Under the pieces are notes generated by a model. It worked only from the letters and a program-made list of their open reading frames with translations. It had not been told where the DNA came from and made no database searches. Of a DNA stretch of 64,000 nucleotides, positions 49,795-64,000 are shown one piece after another (position 1 is the first letter of the stretch; every line of letters begins with the position of its first letter). This stretch comes from an uncultured Gemmatimonadales bacterium (GTDB lineage: Bacteria; Gemmatimonadota; Gemmatimonadetes; Gemmatimonadales; Gemmatimonadaceae). Made by a program: the position numbers and the translations under genes. The stretch is from assembly GCA_963731305.1 (NCBI GenBank), contig CAVSUQ010000011.1, positions 11,670-75,669 on the forward strand, read 5' to 3'.

Positions 49795-49850
49795 AACCGC
49801 GCACACGCGCTCAGGGGCGAACTCTGAGCGAGGGTGCGCGGTTTAGTTTC
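49795..49850. terminator. Extended hairpin between convergent DUF4142 and RCC1 genes
   Basis: aaccgcgcac (49795-49804) pairs with gtgcgcggtt (49834-49843). An inner stem cgctcag/ctgagcg is present. It is followed by the moderately T-rich tagtttcc. Confidence 0.5.
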
Positions 49851-51282
49851 CTGCAATGTTATTGCCGGCTGGTGTTGCTGCATCGATCGTGTCGCCGCTA
49901 CCGAGTTCTCCGTATTGATTGCCTCCCCAGCACCACAGACGGCCGGTCACAGTGATGCCGCACGTACTCCACACTCCGACATCGATGTGCTGAAACTGAA
50001 TTCCATCGAGGACCTGGTTCGGCGCAGTAACAGAATGCAGTTGGTTTAGAACCAGGCCCAGACCGTTCTGGCCGTCATCTTCGGTTCCCCAGCAGTAGGC
50101 GAATCCGCCCGCGAGCCCGCAAATGAATGCGACGCCAGGCTGAAGCGTGGTAAACGGGGGGCCGTTGCCGAGGAAGCCTACCACACCGTTCGCGGGCTGC
50201 GATATACCGAATGGAAACACGAAGGCCGCGTCCCAGCACGACGCAGTGTTGGAGCCCGTTGTCCCGCAAACTGCTGACCCATCTGGAGCGGATCTGAGAG
50301 ACGTGAACTTTGTTGCGTCCTTTCGGGTCGGCGTCAGTTGCGGCGTACCATTCAGACTTGCGTTGCCCCAGCATACTGCTGTGCTATCCGTCGCGATTCC
50401 GCATGTACCGTCGGTGTCTGCAGTCACCGAGGTGAACTTGAAGTTGCCCGCCACTTTCGTTGGGGTATTCGTGCCGGTGGAATTACCGATGCCGAGCTGA
50501 CCGCTTGTATTCGTGCCCCAGCAGTACACGTCACCGATTTGTGTCAATCCGCAAATGTGAGCGAATCCAGCAGCGGCTTGTGTAAAGTTCAATCCAGTCG
50601 CGATTGCGCGTGGCGCTTTCGTTCCACTTGTGTCGGTCGGAATAGTTCCCCAGCAATACAGGTCGCCAATCGACGTGAGACCACAAGTAAACGAGTTTCC
50701 GAGTACCAGGCTCGTGAAGGATGGAACTCCATTCACGAGTATCGGCCTGGTATATACTGCCTGTGATGAAGCAGGATCGACCCAACCGCCGGAATTGTCT
50801 CCCCAGCAATAAGTGGCGCCGCCTACTGATAATGCGCAAGCGTGCCTGTCCTTGACCGCTACGAGCGCAAACCTGGATTCGGGCGGCGGTGGTGGGGTGA
50901 TCACGATAGCAATGCTGTCAGTGAAGTTGCCAGCAGCGACGTAAATCGTTGATTGGCCCTGAGCCAGGGCCGTTACGATTCCGTTGCTGGAAACGGACGC
51001 CAGCGACTGATCCGAGGAACTCCAGGTGGCACTATAACTTGTGAGCGGTTTGCTCTGTGCATCCAGGACCGTGTCCACCAGTTGCTCGGAGACGCCGATA
51101 TCCATAACCGCAACGCGCGGAGCAACAAATAGCCTCGTCGGAATCGGCGCCTGCGGCTGCGTCGGCAGCGCCGAACCTGGAGACGCCGAGTCGCCACCGC
51201 AGGCCAGGATGGCGAGACTCAGTACAACGAGATATGGAAGAGTTGCTCGGCGTGCATACGATACAAGGTGCGACTGCGCCAT
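49843..51282 (-). CDS. Lipoprotein with Big_2 Ig-like domain and RCC1-like (beta-propeller) repeats
   Basis: Start MAQSHLVSYARRATLPYLVVLSLAILACGG (ATG 51282). Big_2-like region (ATWSSSDQSLASVSSNGIVTALAQGQSTIYV). Six or seven repeats of the type YCWG.N..GQLG (CWGDNSGG, YCWGTNTSGQLG, YCWGTEDDGQNG, WCWGGNQYGELG). Confidence 0.75.
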   Translation of the reverse strand: MAQSHLVSYARRATLPYLVVLSLAILACGGDSASPGSALPTQPQAPIPTRLFVAPRVAVMDIGVSEQLVDTVLDAQSKPLTSYSATWSSSDQSLASVSSNGIVTALAQGQSTIYVAAGNFTDSIAIVITPPPPPESRFALVAVKDRHACALSVGGATYCWGDNSGGWVDPASSQAVYTRPILVNGVPSFTSLVLGNSFTCGLTSIGDLYCWGTIPTDTSGTKAPRAIATGLNFTQAAAGFAHICGLTQIGDVYCWGTNTSGQLGIGNSTGTNTPTKVAGNFKFTSVTADTDGTCGIATDSTAVCWGNASLNGTPQLTPTRKDATKFTSLRSAPDGSAVCGTTGSNTASCWDAAFVFPFGISQPANGVVGFLGNGPPFTTLQPGVAFICGLAGGFAYCWGTEDDGQNGLGLVLNQLHSVTAPNQVLDGIQFQHIDVGVWSTCGITVTGRLWCWGGNQYGELGSGDTIDAATPAGNNIAGN

Positions 51283-51435
51283 TAATACTCCACGCCAGGC
51301 AAATGTAAGTACAAAGACGTACGTTGCTGCTAAGGTCCTGCGCGACGCGGCGGCAACAAGAGCGCCATAATATGCGATGTCCTTACGCAATACGAAAGAC
51401 GCTGGCAGAGGTGCATCCGGCAAACCGGGGTCAGT

Positions 51436-51513
51436 AAACTGGGGTCAGAGTGCACTTTTCTTGTCGGATGCACAATCTGCTGGCGTTAGGAAAGTGCACT
51501 CTGACCCCAGTTT
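51436..51513. repeat. Perfect 23-bp inverted repeat (hairpin) with 32-nt spacer
   Basis: aaactggggtcagagtgcacttt (51436-51458) is the exact reverse complement of aaagtgcactctgaccccagttt (51491-51513). It lies directly 3' of the transposase remnant. Confidence 0.9.
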
Positions 51514-51539
51514 CCCTCAAGCTGGTGAGAAGCGCGTGC

Positions 51540-51870
51540 GGTGCCAGGTCTTGCGCGGTGCGCGTTTCACGGCACGGGTGGTCCGGCTCGCGCATGAGTA
51601 ATGAATACCGAGATGTTCTGTGATTGCGCGTTACGAAGCCGCCACTCGCAAACGAATCAGTGATCGCGTGATTCTGCTCGACCAGATTGCGCCCCATCTT
51701 ATCTTGCGGCGCTTGACTTTGCACTGCAGGCAGTTGCTAGGCAGGATGCAGCGTTTTTTGTCGCCGATCTGACGCAAGGTATGACACCACTGCATCGCGT
51801 TGCGGGGAACGTAGATGCGGTTGCGGTTGCTCTGGGTGTAACGCGATCGGCTACATACCGCAGGATGCAC
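51540..51870 (-). pseudogene. Decayed IS200-like (Y1, COG1943-type) transposase remnant with DnaA-type HTH tail (copy A)
   Basis: The minus strand reads ...RYTQSNRNRIYVPRNAMQWCHTLRQIGDKKRCILPSNCL (resembles the YHV..RGN.R..IF...D...FL motif). After a stop it reads AITEHLGIHYSCASRTTRAVKRA (resembles the SL.eIae.fG....stVsr HTH). Only about 110 codons remain. Confidence 0.45.
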
Positions 51871-51995
51871 CGACTAGGTGTTGCCGTTCCAAGAAGAGGA
51901 CCACGCCTCAGGCCGAGCAATGAGAGCGACGACGCCCTCGCGATGAGCAACCGCTAGCAGGGATCCCGTCACCCGCAAAGATTGAACCTCAGGAG

Positions 51996-52049
51996 TTGTC
52001 GCGTATTGTCGCGTATTGTTTCGAAACAATACGCGACAATGCGCGACAA
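51996..52049. repeat. 54-bp near-perfect palindrome built from tandem TTGTCGCGTAT units
   Basis: ttgtcgcgtattgtcgcgtattgtttc | gaaacaatacgcgacaatgcgcgacaa: 26 of 27 arm positions pair, with no spacer. It lies about 280 nt upstream of the Rhs start and directly 5' of transposase remnant A. Confidence 0.9.
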
Positions 52050-52330
52050 TAGATGCCTTGATTTAACGCTAAGTCGTTGTAACAACGCGGCTTAGCGTTT
52101 GTTGCGTCATGGCACTCGGCGTGCCTATACCGCCCTCCATGTTGCACAACGTGTTGCCATCAATGCGCTCGTTCCAGTGACTATAGGCAGTCGCTCCGAA
52201 GTCGCGCGAGTGAGCCAGATGCGAGCACCAATCCGGGGACAGTGTCGCCGGGTTCCGTCTACTCCTGTGTCAAGGCAATACAAGACGACCAGTCAAACCA
52301 GCTCGTCAACTCAAGCCCCGGTGTTTCGCA

Positions 52331-55300
52331 ATGAGATCTTCCCTGAGATTGTCATCGGTTAGTGATCGCCATCTCGGCTTCGTACATCAACTCAGATCGA
52401 GGCTGACGAGATGCCTTTGGATCGTCGCATTCTGGGCGCTCGCGATCCCAGCCGCGGCGTATGCTCAAGCGAAAAGCGGGAAGGTGATTCCGCTGATCGG
52501 AGGCAATGCGCTGGTAACGATCTATCCTTCCTCAGACAATGTCACGGTCTCAGGTAGTACTACGCACACATATCAATTTGATCTCGGTAACTCCGGGACC
52601 GGCAACACGACAGCGACGCTCAGCACTCCCACCTGTAGCGGCGCGGTCAGCGGTTGTTCGGTCTCACCGACGAGCGTCTCGCTGCCTGCCAATGGTGCGG
52701 GTGCGGTGGCGACGGTGAGCTATACCGCGGCAGCTACGGGTACGGGCACCATCATCCTCAACGCCAACTGGCCGTCCGGGAACAACGTGCAAGGCACACT
52801 CACCGTGACGGTGCAGAGCGCGACACCTGCAGTCTCGGTGAGTCCCAATCCGAACTACTCAGCCGAAAGCTTCGCCACGAACGATCCTAACTTCTCGGTC
52901 AAGAACAACGGTAACACGGCTTCTACTTACAACCTCTCTGTAGACTGCTCGGGCAACATCTCGGCCTGCTCCGTGGGCTCACCGAGCGCAAGTGTATCAC
53001 CGGGTAGCTCGACAGCCGCCACGGTCTATTACACCACCGGACCATGGACGAGTGGAAACGGCACGGCCACACTGACGGCGACCTCTGTTCTCACCGGTCA
53101 GTCGACCAATACGGCCGTCACAGTAGTCCCGCTTTCACCGGCGGTGAGCGTAACGCCTGACGGAGGAACTCCGAGCCCCGAGCCGGGCGTCGGAGCCAAT
53201 GTCAGTGTGCCATTCACGGTGACTGACGTTGGGAACTCGAGTCCCACTACGTATTCGCTCGTGTGCGGCTACTCGGGCGTTGTGACGAGCTGCTCGGTCA
53301 CACCAAGTGTCCAGGTATACATTGGCTCGCCGCAAACGGTTACGGTGAGCTACACGACAAGCACCAATACGGCAGGTGGTACGGGGCAGGTGACGCTCAC
53401 TGCGACCGCAGGCGGCCCTCAGGTACACACATACTCGGACGCCGGTAACTACAACGTTGCCGTGGCTGATGCGAGAACGTATACGCCGGTTGTCACACCC
53501 AAGGGCAGCCCGACTGGCCAAGCCAGCCCCTATACCTTGACTACTTACAAGTTCGCCGTCAAGAACACGGGCGATACGCAGGCGAGCTACACGCTGACAA
53601 CTCCGACGTGCACGGGCACGTCTGGTGGGTGTAGCGTGACCAGCCCGATCACGGTCAATCCTGGTCAGACCGATAGCGTAGCGGTGAGCTTTACAACTGG
53701 CGCTGCCGGTCAGAACGTGGCGCTCGACCTTCACGCTGCGATGAGTGCTCATGGAGTCACATTCGCAGACGACGGCACGGCCAGTATAAATGTGTCGTAC
53801 AGGCTTCAGGTCTCGACGGCGTTCATGAACAACGACGATCAGGACATGAGCCTCTGTGCTGCATCGTGCTTTGCAATGACGGCAGCAAGGAGCACGGTGC
53901 CGTACTACACACTCGATGCGCCGCGAAACGTAACGCTCGTGTACAACGGAGATCGTGCCTTCCCGAGACCGTTCATCTACGCTGACGTCTCAGATTCAAC
54001 GGCTCCGAGCTCCATCAGCAGCTACACGCTCGAGGTGAAGCGACTGGGCGTCGATCTTCCATTTGTCAACGGCGAGACCAAGCTGACCTTCCAGGGCACG
54101 AGTAGTCCCGCGACGACGTACCGCTTAGCGGGCCAGATCGATATGTCGAGTTATGCGACCAATGTGGACTCCGTGACATTAGTCGTGACGGCTTATTACA
54201 CGAACGGCGAGAGCGACGTCACGCCGGTCAAGACGCAGCTCATGTGGGTCAATTCGACACTCAATACACAGGCTGCGCCAATCGCTAAAGGGTGGCGGAT
54301 AGCGGGGATGCAGTATTTCAGAGGAACGCCCGAAGGGATCGGATCGTCCGGCGGCGGCTACATGATTGAGAACGGCGACGGGTCGGCCACATACTTCGCA
54401 TATAATGGTGCGATAGGTGCGGATCTCAGCACGCTCGCCTACGACAACGTTTCCAAGTGGATCAGGACGTACCAGGACGGAAGCAAGGTCGCATTCGATG
54501 GCGGTGGGCGAATGCTGTACGCTACCGATCGACTTGGGCGCGAGACACAGTTCATCTATGGTGGCACCGGTAATTGGAAACTCGTAGGGATCATTGAGCC
54601 GATGCGTTCGAGTGGTCACTCGACGTCGGCGCCATACGATTCGCTCACTTATGACGGCAATGGCAACCTCTCAGCGATTATCGAGACAGGCGGCACAGGT
54701 GGCCGCACGACCAGCGTTACCGTCGACGGGAGTGGACACCTGACGCGAATTACCGATCCTGACGGCGGTTACGACAGCTACGGCTACGACGGCTCGGGTC
54801 GGCTTAGCACGATCACAGACCGGCGTGGCAACACGACGACCTACAATTATGGTCTCACGTGGAAGCTTTCCAGCGTTGTGAGTCCATCGGTACCGATCGA
54901 CGCTGGCGGCGGAACGACAACAATGGGCACACCGACTACGAACATCTCGCCTTGGCAGGCGATCGGTGTACCATTCGATACTACAGCAATCACTCCAGCG
55001 GCTCTTACGCTACCAGCCAATGTCCTGGCGATTGTTACCGATCCCAAGAACGACACCACCAGGATGTATCCGGATCGCTGGGGCGAGCTATTAAAGACCG
55101 TCGACGCGCTTGGGAACACTACGACGATTCAGCGTTCCGGATTTCTCCCAACTGTCATTACTCATCCTGACGGAAGTGTGGACTCTGCGTCCTACTACGC
55201 TAGTGGCTTGTTGCAGACGCAACACTCGGCAGGTCAGCAGACTGTGAGCTATACCTACGGCAACATGAACCAGCTGCAGAGTGAATCCGGTAGCGGTGTG

Positions 55301-57889
55301 GTGACCGTGACAAACGTGCTCGACAGTCTGGGCCGCACAATCAAGACGACCTACGGCACGGTGACTGGCGATACGACGATTTTCAAGTACGACTCGGTGA
55401 CCAAGAACGTGGCGAGCATGTTCAGGCCGGACACGGGGCTCGTGACCTATCAGTACGACTCCAAGTTTGGGAACTCGAGCACGGAGACCGATCCGGGTAG
55501 CCGGGTGACTCAGTCCTACTTCGATAACTATGGCCGGGACACTGCGGACAAGGCGCCGCAGTATCCAATGACCAAAACCGTGTACGACGTCTTGAACCGA
55601 GTGACAGCACAGTACAACGGAGTCGCCGCTAACCCAATCCGGATCGCGTACGATGCGTTACTGCCGGTATCGGTGCGGGATCCATTGAGCCATGTAGATT
55701 CTACCGAGTATGACGCCGCTGGTAACGTCGCGCGACACTTCGGCTATGCATCTGCAACTGTCCCCACGACGATGAGATACGACCTAGCAAGCCGGCCGAC
55801 GAGTGTGACCAACCGGCGTGGCCAGGAGATAGATGTTACCTACGACCCGCTTGGACGTGTCTTGACTAAGACGGCAGACAGTGCGACGGATCATTTCACG
55901 TACTCGGCCAACGGTCTAATTCAGACCGCCTACAATGCCACTGATACGGTGCGCACTGTATCGGTACCAAGTGCGCTACTGGACACGGTCCAGACGACAA
56001 TGGCAGCAACTGGCGTCACGTCGCATATTTATACGATCGTACACCGCGCGAGCAGCGACGCCGGTGGGACGGATTCGACCACGATATCGAGCAACGGAGC
56101 GCCGGCCCAGTTCGTGACGCGGCGCTACGTGAACGATGCTGCAAGCGGTATGTTGAGCGCCATCAATTTGGGATCAAGCATTGGTCAGGGGAGCTTCACG
56201 TACGATGCGGCCAGCCGGCGCGTCGCCACCGCATGGCCCACTGCTGGCAGCAGCTCCTATTATCTATCGACCGGCACGCGCCAGTATCGGACTTACGGCA
56301 CACTCGACCCGTCCTTCTATGTGGGCTACGCTGTGGACTCGGCGGGGCGGATCTTGAGAGATCACAGGCACTACGGCTCGCCCACGGCGTACAGCAATCG
56401 CGTGTTTGGTTACGACGCGCTGGGCCGCTATACAGGGAGAGACAGTCTTAGCGATGCGACATATCCGTGGTTCTGCGGCGGCTCTGGTCGCTTCGATCCC
56501 AACTACGGGGAGTTTGGCTGCGCGATCGACAGCGTGATGACGCCCAACTCGTACGCCTACGATGACGCCGAGAACAGAGTCGGCGGCGGTATTCATTACG
56601 GCGTAGGCGACGAGGTGACGTCGTCCGACGGCTTCAGCTACACGTACGACGCCGACGGCAATGTCGCAACGCGTACTCAGTCCAGCACGGGCTCGGTGTG
56701 GACCTACAACTGGAGCTCGGACAACAGACTCTTGAGCGCAAGTACGAGCTTGTACGGTATTCCGAGCAACACGGTGAGCTTCGACTACGACGCGCTGGGA
56801 GAACCTGTGGTGAAGCGAGGCAGTACAGGTCAGGTAACGCGAGTCACACTGTACGATGGAGGCCAGATACTTGCCGATCTCGATTCATCGGGGCACAGAG
56901 AGGCAGAATACGTCTACGACGCCGGAACGGACGCGCCATATGCCATGCTCACAGGTACGGACACGGTGAGCGCGGTACGATACTACGCCCAGGACGATCT
57001 AGGGAACGTGCAGGGTCAGTTTGCAGACTACACGCGCTCAACGGAGACTGTATCGTACGGGGATTGGGGTCTTCCGACGGTGAGTGGCGAGACCGCGAAC
57101 CGGCTCACGTGGAAAGGTCTCTCATATGATCCGGATGTGGGACTCACGTACGTGAGAGCCAGGTGGTACGATCCCAACATCGGACGATTCGTGAGCGAGG
57201 ACCCCGCGGGCCTACAGGGCGGGATCAATCCTTACGTGTTCGCTAACAACGATCCGATCAATGGAGCTGATCCGAGTGGTGCGGATCCAGGATACGATGA
57301 CTCCAATAATGAGGGCAGTGGAGACGATGGGGGGTCTTGTACATACACAGTCCGATACCAGTATCCGTTATTGGAGGGCAACACTGGACTGGCCGGAGCT
57401 ATCCCTGGAACGGTGGAAATTATTGGAATGGAATGCCCAAACAGTGGCGTATCACAAGGCCCAACGCCTAGTAGCGGGGCTACAAAACAGCAACCCAAGC
57501 CGACTTTGCCTCCCTGTGCGCCCCCGGCAGCAAGAGGTAACGTAACCTACAAATTCGGGATTCCAACTGCCTCGCCAGCCGTGGCAAACTTTATGACGTG
57601 TACCTCGGCCTGCATGGGTGGTGCTACCTTTCGAGCATCATCGACGTCAGAAGCCCATTCGCTAGCCGACCCGCATACAAGAGGGTTTGCTGTAGATGGG
57701 GAGATACCGGGAAGTGTCGGTCAGATATTCCAGTGTGCGGCAAATTGCGGAGCGGTATTTCAGTTGAACGAATATACGAATCCGTCGCCGCACGCCACGG
57801 CCGGTCATTACCATTTCCAGCTCGTCCCTGGTAAGAACGGCGCTACCGGGCCCTATTATGCAAGATGCACGTACGCTACAAAGCCATGA
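52331..57889 (+). CDS. Rhs/YD-repeat polymorphic toxin (1852 aa): Sec signal, four Cys-pair Ig-like repeats, YD-repeat shell, and a LAS (M15-like) zinc-peptidase-type C-terminal toxin domain
   Basis: Signal CLWIVAFWALAIPAAAYA-QA. Many YD repeats (YDGNGNLSAI, YGYDGSGRLSTITDRRGNTTTYNY, YTYDADGNVATR). Rhs core end YVRARWYDPNIGRFVSEDPAGLQGGINPYVFANNDPINGADPSG. The C-terminal tip contains HTRGFAVD (H-x6-D, 57674-57697) and GHYHF (H-x-H, 57806-57814). Confidence 0.9.
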   Translation: MRSSLRLSSVSDRHLGFVHQLRSRLTRCLWIVAFWALAIPAAAYAQAKSGKVIPLIGGNALVTIYPSSDNVTVSGSTTHTYQFDLGNSGTGNTTATLSTPTCSGAVSGCSVSPTSVSLPANGAGAVATVSYTAAATGTGTIILNANWPSGNNVQGTLTVTVQSATPAVSVSPNPNYSAESFATNDPNFSVKNNGNTASTYNLSVDCSGNISACSVGSPSASVSPGSSTAATVYYTTGPWTSGNGTATLTATSVLTGQSTNTAVTVVPLSPAVSVTPDGGTPSPEPGVGANVSVPFTVTDVGNSSPTTYSLVCGYSGVVTSCSVTPSVQVYIGSPQTVTVSYTTSTNTAGGTGQVTLTATAGGPQVHTYSDAGNYNVAVADARTYTPVVTPKGSPTGQASPYTLTTYKFAVKNTGDTQASYTLTTPTCTGTSGGCSVTSPITVNPGQTDSVAVSFTTGAAGQNVALDLHAAMSAHGVTFADDGTASINVSYRLQVSTAFMNNDDQDMSLCAASCFAMTAARSTVPYYTLDAPRNVTLVYNGDRAFPRPFIYADVSDSTAPSSISSYTLEVKRLGVDLPFVNGETKLTFQGTSSPATTYRLAGQIDMSSYATNVDSVTLVVTAYYTNGESDVTPVKTQLMWVNSTLNTQAAPIAKGWRIAGMQYFRGTPEGIGSSGGGYMIENGDGSATYFAYNGAIGADLSTLAYDNVSKWIRTYQDGSKVAFDGGGRMLYATDRLGRETQFIYGGTGNWKLVGIIEPMRSSGHSTSAPYDSLTYDGNGNLSAIIETGGTGGRTTSVTVDGSGHLTRITDPDGGYDSYGYDGSGRLSTITDRRGNTTTYNYGLTWKLSSVVSPSVPIDAGGGTTTMGTPTTNISPWQAIGVPFDTTAITPAALTLPANVLAIVTDPKNDTTRMYPDRWGELLKTVDALGNTTTIQRSGFLPTVITHPDGSVDSASYYASGLLQTQHSAGQQTVSYTYGNMNQLQSESGSGVVTVTNVLDSLGRTIKTTYGTVTGDTTIFKYDSVTKNVASMFRPDTGLVTYQYDSKFGNSSTETDPGSRVTQSYFDNYGRDTADKAPQYPMTKTVYDVLNRVTAQYNGVAANPIRIAYDALLPVSVRDPLSHVDSTEYDAAGNVARHFGYASATVPTTMRYDLASRPTSVTNRRGQEIDVTYDPLGRVLTKTADSATDHFTYSANGLIQTAYNATDTVRTVSVPSALLDTVQTTMAATGVTSHIYTIVHRASSDAGGTDSTTISSNGAPAQFVTRRYVNDAASGMLSAINLGSSIGQGSFTYDAASRRVATAWPTAGSSSYYLSTGTRQYRTYGTLDPSFYVGYAVDSAGRILRDHRHYGSPTAYSNRVFGYDALGRYTGRDSLSDATYPWFCGGSGRFDPNYGEFGCAIDSVMTPNSYAYDDAENRVGGGIHYGVGDEVTSSDGFSYTYDADGNVATRTQSSTGSVWTYNWSSDNRLLSASTSLYGIPSNTVSFDYDALGEPVVKRGSTGQVTRVTLYDGGQILADLDSSGHREAEYVYDAGTDAPYAMLTGTDTVSAVRYYAQDDLGNVQGQFADYTRSTETVSYGDWGLPTVSGETANRLTWKGLSYDPDVGLTYVRARWYDPNIGRFVSEDPAGLQGGINPYVFANNDPINGADPSGADPGYDDSNNEGSGDDGGSCTYTVRYQYPLLEGNTGLAGAIPGTVEIIGMECPNSGVSQGPTPSSGATKQQPKPTLPPCAPPAARGNVTYKFGIPTASPAVANFMTCTSACMGGATFRASSTSEAHSLADPHTRGFAVDGEIPGSVGQIFQCAANCGAVFQLNEYTNPSPHATAGHYHFQLVPGKNGATGPYYARCTYATKP

Positions 57890-58419
57890 GAATCCGTAAG
57901 GTTTGCGCGCTGTTGTGTATGCCATTATTAGGGGCCACGGCTCAAGGTCGTGATTGCACGGCGCTACCGACAGCGGCTCGAGTAGCATTAGCGCCAGAGT
58001 TGCAGCAAGGGTGGCGCATAGTTGCAACAGCGGATCTTCCGTCTGATGATCGGGCACTATGGCACCAGTACCACCCGGGGCAATGTCCGGGTGTGGCTAC
58101 GGGACACTTCAGCAACAGCGACGACGTCGCCTATTCGATCGCGCTCTTACATTCGAGCTCAGCGGGTCAATACACCGAGGAATTGCTTCTACTGGTCCCG
58201 ATCAGAGCGAGCTATTCACTCAAGACGGTCGTGAGCCGTACCAGAGTGGTAAGTCCGTTTGTAGTGTGGAAATTGCCACCGGGAAGGTACAAGGCCCTAT
58301 ACACAAAATCGGCGGTCTTTATCCCGTTGGATTCTTTTGTCTACGAGAAGATGGAAGCGACAGCAACTCAATATTTCATGCGAGATGGGCACCTTCGATC
58401 TATTCTGATTAGCGACTAA
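57886..58419 (+). CDS. Candidate cognate immunity protein (secreted/periplasmic, 177 aa)
   Basis: The ATG overlaps the Rhs TGA (ccATGAga). Signal peptide MRIRKVCALLCMPLLGATAQG. No family recognised; the call rests on its position directly after the Rhs toxin tip. Confidence 0.6.
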   Translation: MRIRKVCALLCMPLLGATAQGRDCTALPTAARVALAPELQQGWRIVATADLPSDDRALWHQYHPGQCPGVATGHFSNSDDVAYSIALLHSSSAGQYTEELLLLVPIRASYSLKTVVSRTRVVSPFVVWKLPPGRYKALYTKSAVFIPLDSFVYEKMEATATQYFMRDGHLRSILISD

Positions 58420-58482
58420 CGTGATAGAGGCTGTTGGGGCAGATAGTTGGCGGGTCACTCCGAACTGAGTCCATCTGGAGCG

Positions 58483-58640
58483 CTAGTTTTTCAGTCGCGA
58501 GCGGCTCGGGATGAAGTTTCCACCCGTTGCTGTTCTAGAGTACGCTCTTGCGTACTCGGCAGGGGTGTCGTTGGCTAAGCTACTGTGTGACCGCACGTTG
58601 TTGCAGTCCGTTGACGTTCCCCACGAAATGAGCCCGAAGT
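58483..58640 (-). pseudogene. C-terminal remnant of an rve (DDE integrase-core, IS3/IS481-like) transposase
   Basis: The end of ORF 58483-58725 reads ...ISWGTSTDCNNVRSHSSLANDTPAEYARAY. This resembles the W..YN..RPHSSLG..TP.E. tail of rve transposases. No upstream catalytic domain is present. Confidence 0.5.
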
Positions 58641-59110
58641 TAAGTTGACAGTCTGACCGGTCGCCAGAGGGTGGCCAGGAGGACTGGAAGATGCGGAAGA
58701 GTCGATCCACCGAGGCGCAGCACATTGACGTACGGTGTCAGGTCCGCCCATGCGTGTTCTGCACCGATGATCCGGCTCACGCGTGAGTAGTGATGGAGAC
58801 CGAAGTGTTCGCCGATCGCCTGCATCGTGCAGTCGCCACCGGCGACGGGATCGATGATCGCGCGATTCCGCTTGGCCCGACTGCCCGCCGGAGCTTACTC
58901 TGCTAGTGGTTGCTCGGTCGGACGCAGCAATTTCCATCTTTGGGCTGCTGCAGGGCGAACGCAGCGATGCGCCAGTGTCGTCTAGGATCGTGAGGAACAT
59001 CATCCGGTCACAGTCATCGAAATAGACCGGGTCCTAGCCGTCTCCACGTAAAATTATGTGATAGAGAGCACCGGGAATTGGAGACCCAGCGGTCTGAACA
59101 CTCACCGATC
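58640..59110 (-). pseudogene. Decayed IS200-like (Y1, COG1943-type) transposase remnant with DnaA-type HTH tail (copy B)
   Basis: Hand translation of the minus strand gives PIPGALYHIILRGDG-stop-DPVYFDDCDRMMFLTILDDTGAS, then WRIAAFAL, then AKRNRAIIDPVAGGDCTMQAIGEHFGLHHYSRVSRIIGAE in shifted frames. The HTH region is roughly three-quarters identical at nucleotide level to copy A (rough hand alignment). Confidence 0.5.
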
Positions 59111-59582
59111 ACACAACCGCTGGTGGACAGCGTGCGAATTGAGCTATGCGCGAGTGTGGCTAGGTCCTGCCTCGCTGCACAACGCGATATCTGACACCCG
59201 ATTACCCACTGTAGGATGAGACCTACTACTGTCGGATCGCTGCTACTCTGGTGCAAAGACTCGAAAGAATTTCGTCAAAAGTACTGCGCTTTTTGACCAC
59301 GCTCTGCGCTTTCCGGACGAATCGCGCAGCCTTTATCAGCGTCATGTTCGGACCATTTGGCTTTATGCATCGCAGTACGACAAAGAAGCAATGAAAATAG
59401 ACAGTCATTTGTACTCGTTCAGGCGCTGAGGTTCGAATAATAAGCCGCTTTAACTTAATATCAGCCACGTCAAAAAACGCATATCGTGTTCTGAATTCGC
59501 ACTTGCCGGTTCGACGCATACAGCTACGTTGTACTCCGCATCAAGTCAAAGCTCATCATGCGGATCCACTGCGCGGATTACT

Positions 59583-61088
59583 ATGCCGTCGTTCCGCAAC
59601 GCGAGGCCGTCTGTGTCATCGATTGCCGAAGGTGATTTGGAGTCAGTCGTTGTTGCCGGTGTGAGTCGAGAGTACCTGCTCCATCATCGAGTCTGTCCTG
59701 ACAAGCTCGATGGCGACGGTACACTCATCGTGGCTGTAGGACCCGGGGCGTTTCTCGAAGCGATTCCGGAGCTGAGCAACGTATATGGCCGGCGAGTCGC
59801 TACGCGCGAAGCATCGGATGACGATCTCGAGCGCATGATCGAGCGCATTACGGCGCACGCTGAGAGTGGCGCTGAGCCTTTACGCGGCGGTGAGGAAGAT
59901 ACCGCGGACGTTAGAGAGATCGCAAATCAGCCGCCGGTAATTCGTTATGTGAACACGTTGCTGCACGATGCATACGAGGCGGGAGCAAGCGACGTCCACA
60001 TAGAGTCCACACGCGGCGGTGCAGTGGCCCGCGCGCGCGTCGACGGTTTGCTCGCATCCACGATAGAGCCACCGCGGCGGTTGCACGATGCAGTCGTGTC
60101 GCGGCTCAAGCTGCTTGCCGATCTGGATATCTCGGAGCGCAGACGGCCGCAGGATGGGCGCATACGTGTGCGTGTGGACAACACGGAGCTCTACCTGCGC
60201 GTCTCGACCGTACCCACAGTCTACGGCGAGAGCGTCGTACTGCGCTTGCTTGATCGCGGCACGCGTCCCGTCGACCTCACTGCGCTTGGTATGCCGGATG
60301 ATATTCTGCGGGCGATGACGACGGCGATCGATCGTCCACACGGGATGGTGCTCGTCACGGGTCCAACTGGCAGCGGAAAGACGACTACGCTCTACAGCGC
60401 TCTGCGTAGACGTGATATCCGATCGGAGAAGGTGGTAACTGTGGAAGATCCGGTCGAGTACCAGCTCGAAGGGGTCACGCAGGTGCCGGTGCATCGCCAG
60501 GCCGGCGTCACGTTCGCCTCCGCGCTCCGATCGATCCTGAGGCAGGACCCGGACGTCGTGATGATTGGTGAAATGCGTGATATGGAGACCGCCGAGATCG
60601 CGATTCAGGCGTCGATGACAGGCCACCTCGTCTTTTCTACCCTTCATACCAACGATGCAATCGGTGCTCTACCGAGACTGTTCGATCTCGGCATCGCTCC
60701 ATATCTCATCGCGGCAACGCTCACCGCGATTCAGGCTCAACGCCTGGTGCGTAACGCATGCCCGGAATGCAAGTCACACTGCGAGCTTCGCGGTGAGCTC
60801 GCCGACCTGCAACGCAGCATCGCGCCCGAAATCTCTGCTGCTGATTTCGTTCGCGTGAACGGCTGTCCCGCATGTCGTGGTACAGGCTTCAAAGGGCGCA
60901 TCGGGATCTTCGAGATGGTTGCGGTCGACGACGCTCTCAGAGCTGCGATTGCCAGGAGCGCGCCGAGGGCGGAGCTCAAGTCCCTTGCGGACCAGCGCGG
61001 ATACAGGCCGATGATAGCCGACGGAATCGCGAAGGCCGCGCGTGGCATTACAACCATGGACGAGGTGCTCAGAGTCTGCAATGCCTAG
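59583..61088 (+). CDS. gspE: Type II secretion system ATPase GspE
   Basis: T2SSE_N-like N-terminus, Walker A VTGPTGSGKTTTLY, Asp/His boxes, and the tetracysteine CPECKSHC...CPACRGTG. ATG 59583, with an alternative TTG at 59529. Confidence 0.9.
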   Translation: MPSFRNARPSVSSIAEGDLESVVVAGVSREYLLHHRVCPDKLDGDGTLIVAVGPGAFLEAIPELSNVYGRRVATREASDDDLERMIERITAHAESGAEPLRGGEEDTADVREIANQPPVIRYVNTLLHDAYEAGASDVHIESTRGGAVARARVDGLLASTIEPPRRLHDAVVSRLKLLADLDISERRRPQDGRIRVRVDNTELYLRVSTVPTVYGESVVLRLLDRGTRPVDLTALGMPDDILRAMTTAIDRPHGMVLVTGPTGSGKTTTLYSALRRRDIRSEKVVTVEDPVEYQLEGVTQVPVHRQAGVTFASALRSILRQDPDVVMIGEMRDMETAEIAIQASMTGHLVFSTLHTNDAIGALPRLFDLGIAPYLIAATLTAIQAQRLVRNACPECKSHCELRGELADLQRSIAPEISAADFVRVNGCPACRGTGFKGRIGIFEMVAVDDALRAAIARSAPRAELKSLADQRGYRPMIADGIAKAARGITTMDEVLRVCNA

Positions 61089-61545
61089 AGAGCTGCATAA
61101 CTCCCCACGTGACCGGCGTGCGTTCACATTGATGGAACTGCTCGTCGTCATCGCGATCATCGCCACACTCGCAGCGATTGTGGCGCCAGCGATATTCCGA
61201 AACCTCGGCGACGCGAAAACGAGCGCCGCTCAGAGCCAGATCGAGATGTTGTCGATGGCGCTCAACTCGTATCGTCTCGACAATGGCGATTACCCGACGC
61301 AGGCTCAGGGGCTTGCAGCACTGCGCGTTGTGCCCACTGGCAGCGATGCGCCCCCAAACTGGCGCGGTCCGTACCTGACGCGTGACGTGCCGCTGGATCC
61401 ATGGCGACGTCCTTACATCTACACGTTCCCCGGTGTCGAGAATCAGGGAAGCTTCGACCTCTACACGCTCGGCAAGGACGGCAAGCCTGGCGGTGATGAC
61501 GAGGATGCGGATGTCACTTCGTGGGGCGGACCGGTGCATCAGTGA
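61081..61545 (+). CDS. gspG: Type II secretion major pseudopilin GspG
   Basis: Prepilin motif RRAFTLMELLVVIAIIATLAAIVAP. GspG signature PPNWRGPYLTRDVPLDPWRRPYIYTFPG...FDLYTLGKDGKPGGDDEDADVTSW. Confidence 0.9.
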   Translation: MPRELHNSPRDRRAFTLMELLVVIAIIATLAAIVAPAIFRNLGDAKTSAAQSQIEMLSMALNSYRLDNGDYPTQAQGLAALRVVPTGSDAPPNWRGPYLTRDVPLDPWRRPYIYTFPGVENQGSFDLYTLGKDGKPGGDDEDADVTSWGGPVHQ

Positions 61546-62753
61546 TCAGCCCCTCCGTTGGTTACAATGGCCCGAGTGCATTCAGGTATCGGGCTGCGCG
61601 TGCCGATGGCGCACTGCTACGCGGAACGATGATAGCGACGGATGAGCGATCCGCCGTGGATGCGCTCCATGCGCAAGGTCTGTATCCGATCGAGGTGGTG
61701 CGAGCGCGGTTCACATCGAGGCGAAGCGTGCCACGCTCGTCCGATGTTGCGCCGGGCTTGCGGGTGCTGGCAAACCTGTTGGCCGCCAACATTCCAATGT
61801 CTCGCACACTCGCGACGTTCGAGGAGCTCGCACCCAAGTCATGGGCAGCAGCGGCGGCGGCTATTCGCGAGCGCGTGAGGACCGGCGGACGTCTGGCAGA
61901 CGGCTTGCGAGAGGATGCAGGCCTGTCACCCGTGCTCGCGGGGATCATCGCCGCGGGCGAGTCATCCGGTGATCTCGCTCCGGCCGTTTTGCGGAGCGCA
62001 GAGCTGTCGGAAGAGAACGCGGCGCTGAGGTCAGCGGTGCGCGGGGCGCTCGTGTATCCAACGATTCTGCTGATCGCGGGAGCGTGCTCCGTCGGACTAC
62101 TTGTAGGCGTAGTCCTTCCGCGCTTCGCTTCGATTCTTGCCGATACAGGACAGGCGCCTCCGCCGCTGACGCAGCTCGTACTCAACGTCACTTCGGCTAT
62201 CCAGCAAAATGCAGTCTCGGCTGCAGTAATCGTGATACTCGGCGTTGTCGGTTGGCGCATCTGGACCAGGACGGCCAACGGCGGAGTGGTCTGGAGTGGT
62301 CTGCTTCTCCGCCTTCCCGGTGTAGGTGGGATCAGGCGTTCCGCCGCAACCTCACGCGTCTGCACTGCGATGGCGGCGCTGCTCGAATCGGGAGTCCCAG
62401 CGGCCGTCTCGCTCGGCCGCGCGGCGACAGCGGCGGGAGATGCAGCGATCGAATCACGTCTCGCCGCCGCGCGTGCGGGTGTAACACGCGGTGAGTCCAT
62501 CGGACGCGCGCTCGAAGACTCTTCGGCGCTGACGATCGCCGCGGCGCGTCTGATACGTGCAGGCGAGGAGTCGGGCCGAGTTTCGGCGATGTTCCTCCAC
62601 GCTGCGCGCATCGAAGGTGAGAGGGCAAGGGAGCTGACGCGGAGTGCGGTGCGACTCGTCGAGCCGTCACTCATCCTCGTGTTCGGCGCGATCGTGGCTC
62701 TGATTTCGGGAGCGCTGCTGCAGGCAGTGTACGCCATCCACCCAGTGCGCTGA
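61542..62753 (+). CDS. gspF: Type II secretion inner-membrane platform protein GspF
   Basis: Two T2SSF repeats (ANIPMSRTLATFEE..., ESGVPAAVSLGRAA...) and three TM segments. GTG 61542 overlaps the gspG stop (GTGA), with an alternative GTG at 61521. Confidence 0.85.
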   Translation: MISPSVGYNGPSAFRYRAARADGALLRGTMIATDERSAVDALHAQGLYPIEVVRARFTSRRSVPRSSDVAPGLRVLANLLAANIPMSRTLATFEELAPKSWAAAAAAIRERVRTGGRLADGLREDAGLSPVLAGIIAAGESSGDLAPAVLRSAELSEENAALRSAVRGALVYPTILLIAGACSVGLLVGVVLPRFASILADTGQAPPPLTQLVLNVTSAIQQNAVSAAVIVILGVVGWRIWTRTANGGVVWSGLLLRLPGVGGIRRSAATSRVCTAMAALLESGVPAAVSLGRAATAAGDAAIESRLAAARAGVTRGESIGRALEDSSALTIAAARLIRAGEESGRVSAMFLHAARIEGERARELTRSAVRLVEPSLILVFGAIVALISGALLQAVYAIHPVR

Positions 62754-63073
62754 ATGGCTCGATCCTCGCAACAGTCGGCGCGGTGTCACGCTGATAGAGC
62801 TGCTGGTGACGATCGCCATACTCAGCGTAATACTCACGATCACAACTCTCTCTGGCCGGCGAGAAGCGCCCAACTACGACTGCGTCACCGCTCTCGGTTC
62901 AGGTCCGCGCGCTCCGTTCCAGCGCAATCGCTTCTGGAGCTCCGAAGACCGCTGTGTTGAGCGATACCGTGGGCGCGGTGCTCGTGACCGCGCTGCCGGA
63001 CGGCCGCGTGGTGTCCGACATGCCGAATCTCGACAGGAATGCCGGTGTCGTGCGGAGCCCAAGTGCTCAATAG
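62754..63073 (+). pseudogene. Minor pseudopilin (GspH-like), two frame changes
   Basis: ATG 62754 (MARSSQQ..), then the prepilin motif RGVTLIELLVTIAILSVILTITTLS in frame +1. A plausible tail LAGEKRPTTTASPLSVQVRALRSSAIASGAPKTAVLSDTVGAVLVTALPDGRVVSD follows in the third frame (hand translation). Confidence 0.5.
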
Positions 63074-63437
63074 CGCACTATGTGGTGCCAGACCGGGCGC
63101 GGTCCTTCTCGAAGTCATAGTTGCGATGACCATCTTCGCGATCGCGAGCACGGCTACGCTCGTGCGTGCTGCACAGGCGCGTCACGTAGTTGTTCTATCG
63201 ATAGCGAGTGAGGATCGACTGAACGCCGCAAGCGCTTTTCTGGATCATGTAGTGCTGTGGCCGAGGGAAGATCTGGATCGGCACCTTGGCACGCACCCGC
63301 AAGGGCCGTGGTGGCTGGACGTGGAACATCCGGTAGCCGAGCTCTACACGATCGCGATCGTGGACTCTGCGTCGCATCAGAAATTGCTCGATACCATCGT
63401 GTATCGTAGCGCACCGCGAGCACAAGGTGCGTATTAA
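63039..63437 (+). CDS. Minor pseudopilin (GspI-like)
   Basis: Prepilin-type N-terminus GAVLLEVIVAMTIFAIASTATL. 132 aa; the start is uncertain (ATG 63039 or GTG 63063). Confidence 0.6.
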   Translation: MPVSCGAQVLNSALCGARPGAVLLEVIVAMTIFAIASTATLVRAAQARHVVVLSIASEDRLNAASAFLDHVVLWPREDLDRHLGTHPQGPWWLDVEHPVAELYTIAIVDSASHQKLLDTIVYRSAPRAQGAY

Positions 63438-63978
63438 GGCGCCGCGTACGGGCTTTACGCTCCTCGAAGTCCTGGTGGCCGTCATAATCGCCGCCACGCT
63501 TCTGCTGTCCGCCGACGCGGTTTTCGAGCAGTTGGCGTCGTCGCGAGACGGAACCGCCAGATCCACCGGCGTCAGAGATGAGAAGCAGAATGCGGACGCG
63601 TTGATACGCGGCTGGGTGCGACAGATCGACATATCGCCAGTCGGTGGGTCGTCGCAGCCGCACGTCTTTGTTGGCGACGCTGGCGAGACGAGATTCACGT
63701 CGTGGTGTGTTGCCGCTGGTGGATGGGAGCGCGAGTGTAGCGTGTCGCTTCGTACCACGGCTGATTCGAGTGGTGTCGGCGTCGTAGCTGTGAGCGCGAC
63801 AGGCGACTCGGCGCGGATTCAGATGCGCGACAGCACGATCGCGCTGCGTTATCTGATCGATGCCAAGGATGGCGGCCACTGGGTAGACCGCTGGCCGTCC
63901 GGACCGACAGTGCCGATAGCAATCGGCATAGTGAGCCCATCCGATACGATAGTCTACAGAGTCGGAGCGCGAGGATGA
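63427..63978 (+). CDS. Minor pseudopilin (GspJ-like)
   Basis: Prepilin-type N-terminus RTGFTLLEVLVAVIIAATLLL. 183 aa. It overlaps both the upstream stop and the next ATG (63975). Confidence 0.6.
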   Translation: MRIKAPRTGFTLLEVLVAVIIAATLLLSADAVFEQLASSRDGTARSTGVRDEKQNADALIRGWVRQIDISPVGGSSQPHVFVGDAGETRFTSWCVAAGGWERECSVSLRTTADSSGVGVVAVSATGDSARIQMRDSTIALRYLIDAKDGGHWVDRWPSGPTVPIAIGIVSPSDTIVYRVGARG

Positions 63979-64000
63979 TCCCCGGAGCCAATAGTTCAAA

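What the first reader, a model, noticed from the sequence alone, without database searches (positions are those of the whole stretch)
49843..59528. Lower-GC island bracketed by two decayed, same-orientation Y1-transposase remnants plus an rve remnant
- **GC content.** Hand counts of sampled lines give about 50-57% GC inside the Rhs gene and about 42% at 59401-59460. Flanking backbone lines give about 62-65%.
- **Flanking remnants.** The Rhs+immunity pair is flanked on both sides, on the minus strand, by short homologous remnants of an IS200-like transposase with a DnaA-type HTH tail. Copy A is 51540-51870 and copy B is 58640-59110.
- **Remnant similarity.** The two HTH regions are roughly three-quarters identical at DNA level (rough hand alignment), so this is an old duplication, not a recent one.
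- **Extra remnant.** An rve-integrase C-terminal fragment lies at 58483-58640.

This is the footprint of a horizontally acquired, now immobilised toxin island.
Basis: partly seen in the sequence, partly recalled or inferred. Interest (0 to 1): 0.6.

Follow-up and report, generated by a model that had tools for sequence, protein, structure and literature searches.

The report
Rhs toxin locus with transposase debris
This stretch is the left third of a 29.5-kb accessory cluster (two Rhs toxin genes flanking a type II secretion operon) in a Gemmatimonadota genome. Only the toxin tip and its immunity gene look imported, and the transposase fragments look like debris, not the vehicle, so this is an ordinary, well-documented Rhs locus.

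Summary

**Composition.** The GC dip is real: 57.2% against a genome mean of 61.8%, z = -3.5. Inside the Rhs core it comes from amino-acid composition, since GC3 and codon bias there are typical of the genome. Only the toxin tip after the DPxGL motif and the immunity gene are codon-atypical.

**Remnants.**
- Copy B is a genuine Y1 (RAYT-type) remnant. It keeps about aa 3-71 and 245-310, has lost the catalytic core, and carries in-frame stops.
- Copy A is only a 157-bp HTH tail. It is 69% identical to B.
- The rve C-terminal remnant is real.
- An IS3 left-end fragment lies beside it.

**Interpretation: partly supported.**
- The left boundary, about 49840, is a true synteny break. The right boundary at gspE is not.
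- Against the relative G008 (nearest by the flanking DUF4142 gene), the indel is 29.5 kb. It holds RCC1, Rhs1-Imm1, the T2SS operon, its sigma54 activator, Rhs2-Imm2 and an IS3.
- In G017 the homologous cluster sits at a different chromosomal site.
- Rhs1's core has 68% orthologues in the genus. Its tip and immunity gene do not; they recur in four unrelated Rhs genes elsewhere.
- Nothing points to mobilisation by the Y1 copies.

This is a new member of a known kind. I did not find the same thing noted on other DNA in this scan.

The parts
49795..49843 (.). Last backbone feature: a 20-bp-stem hairpin at the end of the small ORF after DUF4142. Synteny with all compared relatives ends at 49828-49846.
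   Evidence: I5. for where homology ends.
49843..51423 (-). RCC1-repeat plus Big_2 protein gene, the first gene of the accessory region. No orthologue in five relatives that carry this T2SS gspE orthologue.
   Evidence: GC3 0.594 and codon bias at the 86th percentile.
51436..51513 (.). REP-like hairpin with 26-nt arms. It belongs to a family with 18 hairpins found in the assembly.
51534..51690 (-). Remnant A: HTH tail only (about aa 245-308) of a RAYT-type Y1+HTH gene, frame-broken.
51801..51957 (+). Relic of the HTH_8 tail of the sigma54 activator gene. It marks the start of a block copied from, or homogenised with, the Rhs2 upstream region at 93.7% identity.
51996..52049 (.). 54-bp palindrome of TTGTCGC half-sites, conserved upstream of T2SS-linked Rhs genes in four species. 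Inferred activator binding site.
52109..52124 (+). Sigma54-type promoter, TGGCAC-N5-GTGC. It is invariant in six upstream regions.
   Evidence: rpoN is present.
52149..52303 (+). 155-bp stretch in the Rhs1 leader that is absent from the Rhs2 leader.
52331..57289 (+). Rhs1 signal peptide, Ig-like N-terminal modules and YD-repeat core, up to about 30 residues after DPAGL. Codon usage is native. The first 160 codons are 89% identical to Rhs2.
57290..57889 (+). Rhs1 C-terminal toxin tip: codon-atypical and without a homologue in 81 relatives. It carries H-x6-D and H-x-H motifs of the LAS zinc-peptidase type.
57865..58419 (+). Imm1, a signal-peptide immunity candidate that overlaps the Rhs1 stop. 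Homologues lie directly after related tips in L135 and L137.
58483..58612 (-). C-terminal remnant, about 40 aa, of an IS3-type rve integrase (OrfB).
58612..58720 (+). Left end and first 10 codons of orfA of an IS3-family element, truncated.
58745..59199 (-). Remnant B: RAYT-type Y1+HTH pseudogene. It keeps about aa 3-71 plus 245-310, lacks the catalytic core, has in-frame stops, and retains about 90 bp of its own upstream region.
59259..59528 (+). AT-rich gspE upstream region, conserved with G015.
59529..64000 (+). Start of the T2SS operon (gspE onward). It belongs to the same 29.5-kb accessory region, which runs on beyond the window to G000:C11:91044.

Best explanation
49843-59528 is not a self-contained island. 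It is the left third of a roughly 29.5-kb accessory cluster.

**Cluster content, in order.** RCC1 protein gene; Rhs1-Imm1; IS and RAYT debris; T2SS operon with its own sigma54 activator; Rhs2-Imm2; an intact IS3.

**Location.** The cluster occupies a variable site just after the terminator-like hairpin downstream of the DUF4142 gene. The same kind of cluster sits at another chromosomal site in G017, so it relocates as a unit. The means of relocation is unknown.

**What is native and what is imported.**
- The Rhs cores are old residents of the lineage.
- The recently imported part is the 1.1-kb toxin-tip plus immunity module. I infer it arrived by recombination at the conserved end of the core, the classic C-terminal displacement.

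**Regulation.** Rhs1's 5' 0.85 kb comprises the activator-tail relic, a palindromic operator, the sigma54 promoter and the first 160 codons. It is a copy of, or has been homogenised with, the Rhs2 5' region. Both toxins would therefore answer to the same activator.

**The transposase fragments.** I read them as non-functional debris that accumulated in dispensable DNA.
- B is most likely the decayed RAYT gene that sits intact at this same site in G011 and G015. In G000 it is inverted and displaced.
- A is an older tail relic.

**Shown versus inferred.** Shown: composition, homologies, synteny and boundaries. Inferred: the order of events, the recombination mechanism and the regulation.
For: **Size and mobility of the cluster.**
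- G008 has 325 bp where G000 has C11:61509-91044.
- In G017 the cluster lies between homologues of G000 C2:91575 and C2:91657, which are adjacent in G000.

**Native cores, foreign tips.**
- Rhs1 core: GC3 0.68, codon bias at the 51st percentile. Rhs2 core: 19th percentile.
- The tips and immunity genes of both Rhs genes fall at the 98.5th to 99.4th percentile.
- Rhs1 core has 68% orthologues in G017 and G016. The alignment stops about 30 residues after DPxGL, and the tips beyond that point are unrelated.
- Tip and Imm1 have no credible hit in 21 genomes of the genus or in 60 of the family.
- Among 5.8 billion proteins the tip occurs in four other Rhs proteins.
- In L135 (GC 50%, beside RepB, ParB and a serine recombinase) the tip is 68% identical. 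It is followed directly by an Imm1 homologue (44% identity, E 2e-44). L137 is similar.
- PMC8636562 states that Rhs C-terminal domains differ from the shell in GC content and codon bias.

**Shared 5' region.** 51801-52148 is 93.7% identical and 52304-52809 is 89.3% identical to the Rhs2 5' region. The operator and the TGGCAC-N5-GTGC element are invariant in six upstream regions from four species.

**RAYT remnants.**
- Full-length relatives score Y1_Tnp (45.8 bits) and NF047646 (86.8 bits, cut-off 80).
- At most one full-length match per genome was found in the genus.
- The gene lies intact right after the DUF4142 flank in G011 and G015. G016 has a tail relic at that place.
- B is 72-79% identical to the G011 and G015 genes. 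That is about the divergence of the flank itself, 75-76%.
- B's upstream homology starts at the base where the flank homology ends in G011.
Against: - No integrase, tRNA gene, att-like direct repeat or other mobility determinant was found at the ends of the 29.5-kb region or of its G017 counterpart. How the cluster moves is unexplained.
- G008 is 67% complete and G000 is 77% complete, and all relatives are one genome per species. The direction of the events, insertion or deletion, is therefore not rooted.
- B lies on the opposite strand to the intact genes in G011 and G015. The inversion I invoke rests on one gapped, weak alignment of about 90 bp.
- A related tip-immunity module in L137 has a Y1_Tnp gene 700 bp downstream. 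This leaves room for a non-accidental Y1 link.
- RCC1 is only mildly atypical and its origin is open.
Confidence: 0.65

Rival explanations
1. A 9.7-kb toxin island was brought in by, or between, two IS200-like Y1 transposase copies in direct orientation. It was later immobilised as those copies decayed.
For: - Two Y1-family relics on the same strand flank Rhs1-Imm1.
- There is a GC dip with z = -3.5.
- There is a synteny break at 49840.
- A Y1_Tnp gene lies 700 bp after a related tip-immunity module in L137.
Against: - The copies are 69% identical and retain the same part of the gene.
- They are of the RAYT type. These are described as single-copy, mostly vertically inherited mobilisers of REPINs (10.1101/2022.05.22.493013).
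- B's similarity to the genus genes matches backbone divergence.
- The Rhs core is native in codon usage and has genus orthologues.
- The real indel is 29.5 kb.
- RCC1 lies outside the bracket.
- No end repeats were found.
Confidence: 0.07
2. The RAYT gene and the hairpin at the end of the DUF4142 flank make this site a hot spot. Y1-type nicking at the hairpin would promote repeated insertion, inversion and replacement of DNA there. On this reading the remnants are relics of the agent, though not of a composite transposon.
For: - Variable DNA starts right after a conserved hairpin in all genomes compared.
- An intact RAYT or a RAYT relic lies at that junction in G011, G015 and G016.
- A REP-like hairpin abuts remnant A.
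- Tail-only relics recur in G016, G017 and G011.
Against: - The hairpin followed by a T-rich run is equally well a plain terminator, and the end of an operon is where insertions are tolerated anyway.
- Only 1 of 18 REP-like hairpins lies next to a RAYT relic.
- G008, G003 and G017 vary at this site without any RAYT trace.
- No intact RAYT was found in G000.
Confidence: 0.12
3. No horizontal transfer at all. The GC dip would be purely an effect of Rhs amino-acid composition and AT-rich intergenic DNA.
For: - Rhs1 core GC3 and codon bias are native.
- The low GC sits at codon position 1.
- gspE has the same GC3 as Rhs1.
Against: - Tip and Imm1 lie at the 98.7th to 99.4th percentile of codon bias.
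- They are not found in 81 relatives.
- They are present as a linked pair in unrelated 50-52% GC contigs.
- There is a 29.5-kb presence/absence polymorphism.
Confidence: 0.05
4. Assembly artefact. The contig of this metagenome-assembled genome would be chimeric at about 49.8 kb, with the low-GC stretch coming from another organism.
For: The genome is a 77%-complete MAG. The composition shift starts at a sharp boundary.
Against: - An independent assembly, G003, also joins DUF4142 to this T2SS operon.
- The Rhs cores and the T2SS have native codon usage.
- Backbone synteny resumes at C11:91045 on the same contig.
- Estimated contamination is 0.9%.
Confidence: 0.03

Closest known systems
Rhs elements of Enterobacteria (conserved core, variable C-terminal tip plus immunity gene, C-terminal displacement, IS debris nearby)
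   Same: - YD-repeat core ending in the PxxxxDPxGL-type motif (DPAGL here).
- The tip and immunity gene have a different GC content and codon bias from the core.
- Core orthologues carry unrelated tips.
- Transposase fragments lie downstream (PMC8636562; PMC7259588 discussion).
   Different: - The N-terminus is a Sec signal peptide plus Ig-like modules, not PAAR or a VgrG adaptor.
- No T6SS sheath or PAAR gene was found in the assembly.
- The genes flank a T2SS operon.
- No displaced orphan tip is left downstream of Imm1.
REP-associated tyrosine transposases (RAYT, NCBIfam NF047646; Y1_Tnp PF01797)
   Same: - Full-length relatives of the remnants pass the NF047646 and Y1_Tnp cut-offs.
- At most one full-length match per genome was found in the genus.
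- A repeated hairpin family exists in the genome, and one copy abuts remnant A.
   Different: - The family carries an extra C-terminal region of about 150 aa that ends in an HTH.
- In G000 both copies are dead: the catalytic part is absent.
- The hairpin family was not seen next to the intact genes of relatives.
IS3-family insertion sequences
   Same: - 58612-58720 matches the left end and orfA start of elements whose OrfA scores HTH_Tnp_1.
- 58483-58612 matches the C-terminus of rve/rve_3 OrfB proteins.
- An intact IS3 lies after Rhs2-Imm2.
   Different: - Both pieces are short fragments on opposite strands.
- They are not detectably related to the intact IS3 copy of the same cluster.
Bcn-A of Xanthomonas perforans, an RHS-family bacteriocin whose activity is lost in a T2SS secretin (xpsD) mutant (PMC7259588)
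   Same: An Rhs-family toxin with a downstream immunity gene and a link to type II secretion.
   Different: - Here the link is only genomic: Rhs genes on both sides of a T2SS operon, in several species.
- No secretion data exist for this organism.

Membership tests
IS200/IS605-type Y1 transposase / RAYT (the two remnants) | Y1_Tnp domain with HUH motif and catalytic tyrosine | tested here: not met
   - PF01797 finds nothing in the whole G000 assembly at E <= 1.
- B lacks residues 72-244, and A holds only the tail.
- Full-length relatives do meet it: Y1_Tnp 45.8 bits, NF047646 86.8 bits.
- The remnants are therefore relics of members, not members.
IS200/IS605-type Y1 transposase / RAYT (the two remnants) | Flanking REP or subterminal hairpins recognised by the enzyme | tested here: inconclusive
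   - A REP-like hairpin abuts A. It is the only one of 18 hairpins that lies next to a RAYT relic.
- B has no flanking hairpin.
- The 54-bp palindrome near A belongs to the Rhs promoter region.
Composite transposon or IS-bracketed island | Two near-identical flanking element copies with intact ends | tested here: not met
   A and B are 69% identical over 161 bp, and both are truncated.
Composite transposon or IS-bracketed island | Terminal repeats or target-site duplication at the island ends | tested here: not met
   No matching repeats at 49.8 and 59.3 kb, nor at the ends of the 29.5-kb region.
Genomic island (horizontally mobile accessory region) | Presence/absence polymorphism with an empty site in relatives | tested here: met
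   - This holds for the 29.5-kb region, not for 49.8-59.5 kb alone.
- G008 has the empty site.
- The G017 cluster lies at another locus, which is empty in G000.
Genomic island (horizontally mobile accessory region) | Atypical composition across the island | tested here: inconclusive
   - The 29.5-kb region is 59.1% GC, z = -2.8.
- T2SS genes and Rhs cores have native codon usage. Only the tips, the immunity genes and non-coding DNA are atypical.
Genomic island (horizontally mobile accessory region) | Integrase or recombinase and an attachment site (often a tRNA gene) | tested here: not met
   - No tRNA gene in 45-64 kb.
- No integrase among the end genes in G000 or G017.
- Only IS3 elements are present.
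Rhs polymorphic toxin with cognate immunity | YD repeats, an Rhs-associated core ending in the DPxGL motif, a variable C-terminal domain, and an adjacent small immunity gene | tested here: met
   - RHS_repeat, TIGR03696 and TIGR01643 all hit.
- DPAGL lies at residue 1624.
- The tip varies between orthologues.
- The tip-immunity pair is conserved in L135 and L137.
- Toxicity and immunity were not tested.
LAS-type zinc peptidase (toxin tip) | H-x6-D and H-x-H zinc and catalytic motifs, and the LAS fold | tested here: inconclusive
   - Both motifs are invariant in five tips.
- The Atlas gives only a weak lead to Peptidase_M15_3 and HH_signal.
- No Pfam or PDB sequence hit.
- The AlphaFold model reached pLDDT 44, too poor for a fold search.
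Sigma54-dependent promoter with upstream activator site | GG-N10-GC element, an upstream palindrome, an activator gene and rpoN | tested here: met
   - TGGCAC-N5-GTGC and the palindrome are invariant in six upstream regions.
- The activator has Sigma54_activat and HTH_8 domains.
- rpoN is present.
- Function was not tested, and the activator is split over two frames in G000.

The most novel reading that the evidence does not exclude
The 29.5-kb unit would be a relocating, self-contained toxin-delivery module.
- A dedicated T2SS would export Sec-signal Rhs toxins that carry Ig-like N-terminal modules in place of PAAR or VgrG adaptors.
- The Rhs genes would be driven by sigma54 promoters and controlled by the cluster's own activator.
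- Homologous exchange between the shared 5' regions would let Rhs paralogues swap positions. In G017 the two Rhs types lie on opposite sides of the operon from G000.
Probability: 0.3. Interest if true: 0.6.

Novelty: new member of a known kind. Interest (0 to 1): 0.3.

Why it matters
- **For the scan.** A GC dip over an Rhs gene is not evidence of foreign origin by itself. Codon-position analysis separates a native core from an imported tip. Short transposase relics next to a toxin gene need not be its vehicle.
- **For biology.** This is a clean example, outside Proteobacteria, of Rhs tip and immunity replacement at the DPxGL boundary.
- **Wider lead.** It also shows that an Rhs-T2SS-Rhs cluster with a conserved sigma54 promoter moves as a unit within a Gemmatimonadota genus. 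That makes a possible T2SS route for Rhs toxins worth testing.

Tried and rejected
- **Pfam on every remnant ORF and stop-to-stop frame** found nothing. Homology showed up only after full-length relatives were found by six-frame search of related genomes.
- **PF13683 on the genome** did not find the rve relic. The intact IS3 of the cluster does not match it either.
- **Rfam on 49-60 kb** gave only spurious miRNA-model hits on the two palindromes.
- **An integron or attC reading of the clustered hairpins on contig C3** was considered and dropped. They flank genes of all sizes and look like REP or terminator hairpins.
- **The 54-bp palindrome as an IS200/IS605 end** was rejected. It is part of the block shared with Rhs2 and is conserved upstream of Rhs genes in four species.
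- **Toxin fold.** There was no PDB or Pfam sequence match. The AlphaFold model reached pLDDT 44, so no fold search was run.
- **Mobility genes at the cluster ends** in G000 and G017: none found.
- **One family-level search drew one genome per genus** and so missed the genus itself. I repeated it at genus level.
- **Call errors.** One search failed on a frame error. One search failed on a coordinate slip and was corrected.
- **Unpublished genomes.**
  - G007 and G018 gave some identity values for A and B (loci L003 and L005; rows). No conclusion depends on them.
  - G028 and G079 appear only as weak hits that I did not use.

Full report
**Setting.**
- The window is G000:C11:11670-75669 of a 3.18-Mb assembly in 17 contigs. 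It is 77% complete with 0.9% contamination.
- The nearest public relatives of one of its genes are Gemmatimonadota MAGs.

**Composition.**
- The stated interval is 57.2% GC against 61.3% for the rest of the window. Genome-wide 9.7-kb windows average 61.8 +/- 1.34%, giving z = -3.5 and the lowest 1%. The dip is therefore real.
- Its causes differ along the interval. Rhs1 has GC3 of 0.66, at the 19th percentile of long ORFs and the same as gspE. Its GC1 is only 0.525 against a genome mean of 0.672.
- In sliding windows GC3 stays at 0.63-0.75 through the core. It falls to 0.51 after the DPAGL motif.
- Karlin codon bias relative to the genome puts the Rhs1 core at the 51st percentile. The tip is at the 99.4th, Imm1 at the 98.7th and RCC1 at the 86th.
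- The second Rhs gene shows the same split: core 19th, tip 98.5th, Imm2 99.1th.
- The core's low GC is thus an amino-acid effect. Only tip plus immunity (1.1 kb, 54.2% GC, z = -3.3) and the non-coding DNA are atypical.

**The Y1 remnants.**
- Pfam saw nothing in the remnant frames. PF01797 has no hit in the whole assembly.
- A six-frame search of relatives with the HTH-tail frame found open frames of 288-352 aa. Those of G011 and G015 read as full genes. They score Y1_Tnp at 45.8 bits and NCBIfam NF047646, 'REP-associated tyrosine transposase', at 86.8 bits against a cut-off of 80. They also have a weak C-terminal HTH.
- Against these proteins, copy B aligns in two pieces on the minus strand. 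One piece is about aa 27-71 at 59075-58944, with DNA homology reaching 59112. The other is aa 245-310 at 58957-58745.
- Both pieces carry in-frame stops. The catalytic core is absent.
- Copy A aligns only over the tail, 51534-51690. It is 69% identical to B over 161 bp.
- The family is widespread, with 573 confirmed loci across many phyla. In this genus I found at most one full-length match per genome.
- That fits the published picture of RAYTs as single-copy, mostly vertically inherited genes that mobilise REPINs (10.1101/2022.05.22.493013).

**Other debris between Imm1 and gspE.**
- 58483-58612 (minus strand) matches the last 30-40 residues, down to the stop, of 323-aa ORFs in G011 and G024. 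Those ORFs score rve, rve_3 and HTH_21.
- 58612-58720 (plus strand) is 84-87% identical to sequences in four relatives. In G006 and G017 those sequences continue into 88-aa IS3 OrfA proteins scoring HTH_Tnp_1 at 70-80 bits.
- In G000 the reading frame breaks after ten codons.

**The region upstream of Rhs1.**
- 51436-51513 is a hairpin with 26-nt arms. Its family has 18 hairpins in the assembly, 14 of them on contig C3. A second copy lies just after Imm2.
- From 51801 the DNA is 93.7% identical to the stretch upstream of a second Rhs gene 17.5 kb downstream. After a 155-bp Rhs1-specific insert, identity is 89.3% through codon 160.
- That block starts inside the HTH_8 tail of a sigma54 activator gene. 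It contains the 54-bp palindrome and a TGGCAC-N5-GTGC element.
- Both the palindrome and the promoter element are invariant in six Rhs upstream regions from G000, G011, G016 and G017. rpoN is present.
The palindrome is an operator-like site, not a transposon end.

**Synteny.**
- The genes o45402, MFS, YceI and DUF4142 keep the same order in G003, G008, G011, G016 and G017. Homology ends at 49828-49846 in the five relatives whose DUF4142 flank was compared, right after a 20-bp-stem hairpin.
- In G008 the backbone resumes after 325 bp. In G000 it resumes at C11:91045, a difference of 29.5 kb.
- That 29.5 kb holds RCC1, Rhs1-Imm1, the debris, the T2SS operon, the activator, Rhs2-Imm2 and an intact IS3.
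- G003 has DUF4142 - 2.5 kb of unrelated small ORFs - gspE.
- G011 and G015 have the intact RAYT at the junction, and G016 has a tail relic there.
- The gspE orthologue (78-89% identity) occurs in only 6 of 21 species of the genus.
- In G017 the cluster lies between homologues of G000 C2:91575 and C2:91657, which are adjacent in G000.
- No integrase or tRNA gene marks the ends.

**The Rhs genes.**
- The Rhs1 core has 68% orthologues in G017 and in G016. In G017 the orthologue lies downstream of the T2SS operon, the position Rhs2 holds in G000. There are 49-50% relatives upstream of gspE in G005 and G016.
- Alignment with the 68% orthologues stops about 30 residues after DPxGL. The tips are then unrelated and no Imm1 homologue follows.
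- Tip and Imm1 have no credible hit in 21 genomes of the genus or 60 of the family.
- In 5.8 billion proteins the tip occurs in four other Rhs proteins, at 40-68% identity. Each is followed by a small gene.
- In L135 that small gene is 44% identical to Imm1 (E 2e-44). In L137 it is 35% identical.
- These contigs are 50-52% GC, and L135 carries RepB, ParB and a serine recombinase.
- Five aligned tips share invariant H-x6-D and H-x-H motifs, which fits a LAS-type zinc peptidase. The fold could not be confirmed.

**Origin of remnant B.**
- B is 72-79% identical to the G011 and G015 genes, about the divergence of the neighbouring flank at 75-76%.
- Its upstream homology to G011 begins at the very base where flank homology ends in that genome.
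- I infer that B is the resident RAYT of this site, now inverted and 9.4 kb from the flank. This step rests on a weak, gapped alignment and is marked as inference.

**Verdict.**
- There is an accessory island, but it is three times larger than stated. Most of it is native to the lineage, and I found no evidence that the Y1 copies carried it.
- The freshly imported unit is the tip-immunity module, as in classic Rhs loci (PMC8636562). A precedent for T2SS-dependent Rhs activity exists in PMC7259588.
- Values from the unpublished genomes G007 and G018 are not needed for any conclusion.

Noticed in passing
window 51996-52124; L001 5783-5911: A 54-bp palindrome of TTGTCGC half-sites, a second small hairpin and a TGGCAC-N5-GTGC element are invariant upstream of T2SS-linked Rhs genes in four species. 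This looks like a sigma54 promoter with its activator site.
   Followed up: partly
L001 4739-5744 (G000:C11:80408-81413): The sigma54 activator at the end of the T2SS operon is one 356-aa frame in G017. In G000 it is split over two overlapping frames: the AAA+ part, then the HTH_8 part. This is either a frameshift or an assembly error.
   Followed up: partly
G000 contig C3 16-120 kb; C2 380 kb; window 51436-51513; L001 12716-12781: A REP-like hairpin family (arm GGGGTCAGAGTGCACTTT) has 18 hairpins found, 14 of them in about 100 kb of one contig, often about 1 kb apart. No intact RAYT is present in the assembly.
   Followed up: partly
window 58612-58720; L024 1504-1603: The IS3 left-end fragment is cut off after the same tenth codon of orfA in G000 and in G011. 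The DNA that follows differs between the two.
   Followed up: no
L137 11491-12183: In an unrelated metagenomic contig a 230-aa Y1_Tnp gene lies 700 bp downstream of a related Rhs tip-immunity module. This holds for one of the four related contexts examined.
   Followed up: partly
G017:C3:27701-62918 versus G000:C2:91575-91657: In G017 the Rhs-T2SS cluster sits at a different chromosomal site that is empty in G000. There the Rhs1-like gene lies downstream of the operon, and an Rhs2-like fragment of about 670 aa lies upstream of gspE.
   Followed up: partly
G016:C5:200036-200173; G017:C13:2036-2140; G011:C6:783224-783316: Isolated relics of just the HTH tail of the RAYT+HTH gene recur in several species, as with remnant A. 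Why the tail survives preferentially is unexplained.
   Followed up: no
window 52149-52303: A 155-bp stretch in the Rhs1 leader, between the promoter and the start codon, has no counterpart in the Rhs2 leader and no other copy in the genome.
   Followed up: no
L012 7436-9958 (G003): Where G000 has RCC1 and Rhs1, G003 has 2.5 kb with a signal-peptide ORF of 154 aa and a membrane ORF of 142 aa. Neither has a Pfam hit. They may be orphan immunity genes.
   Followed up: no
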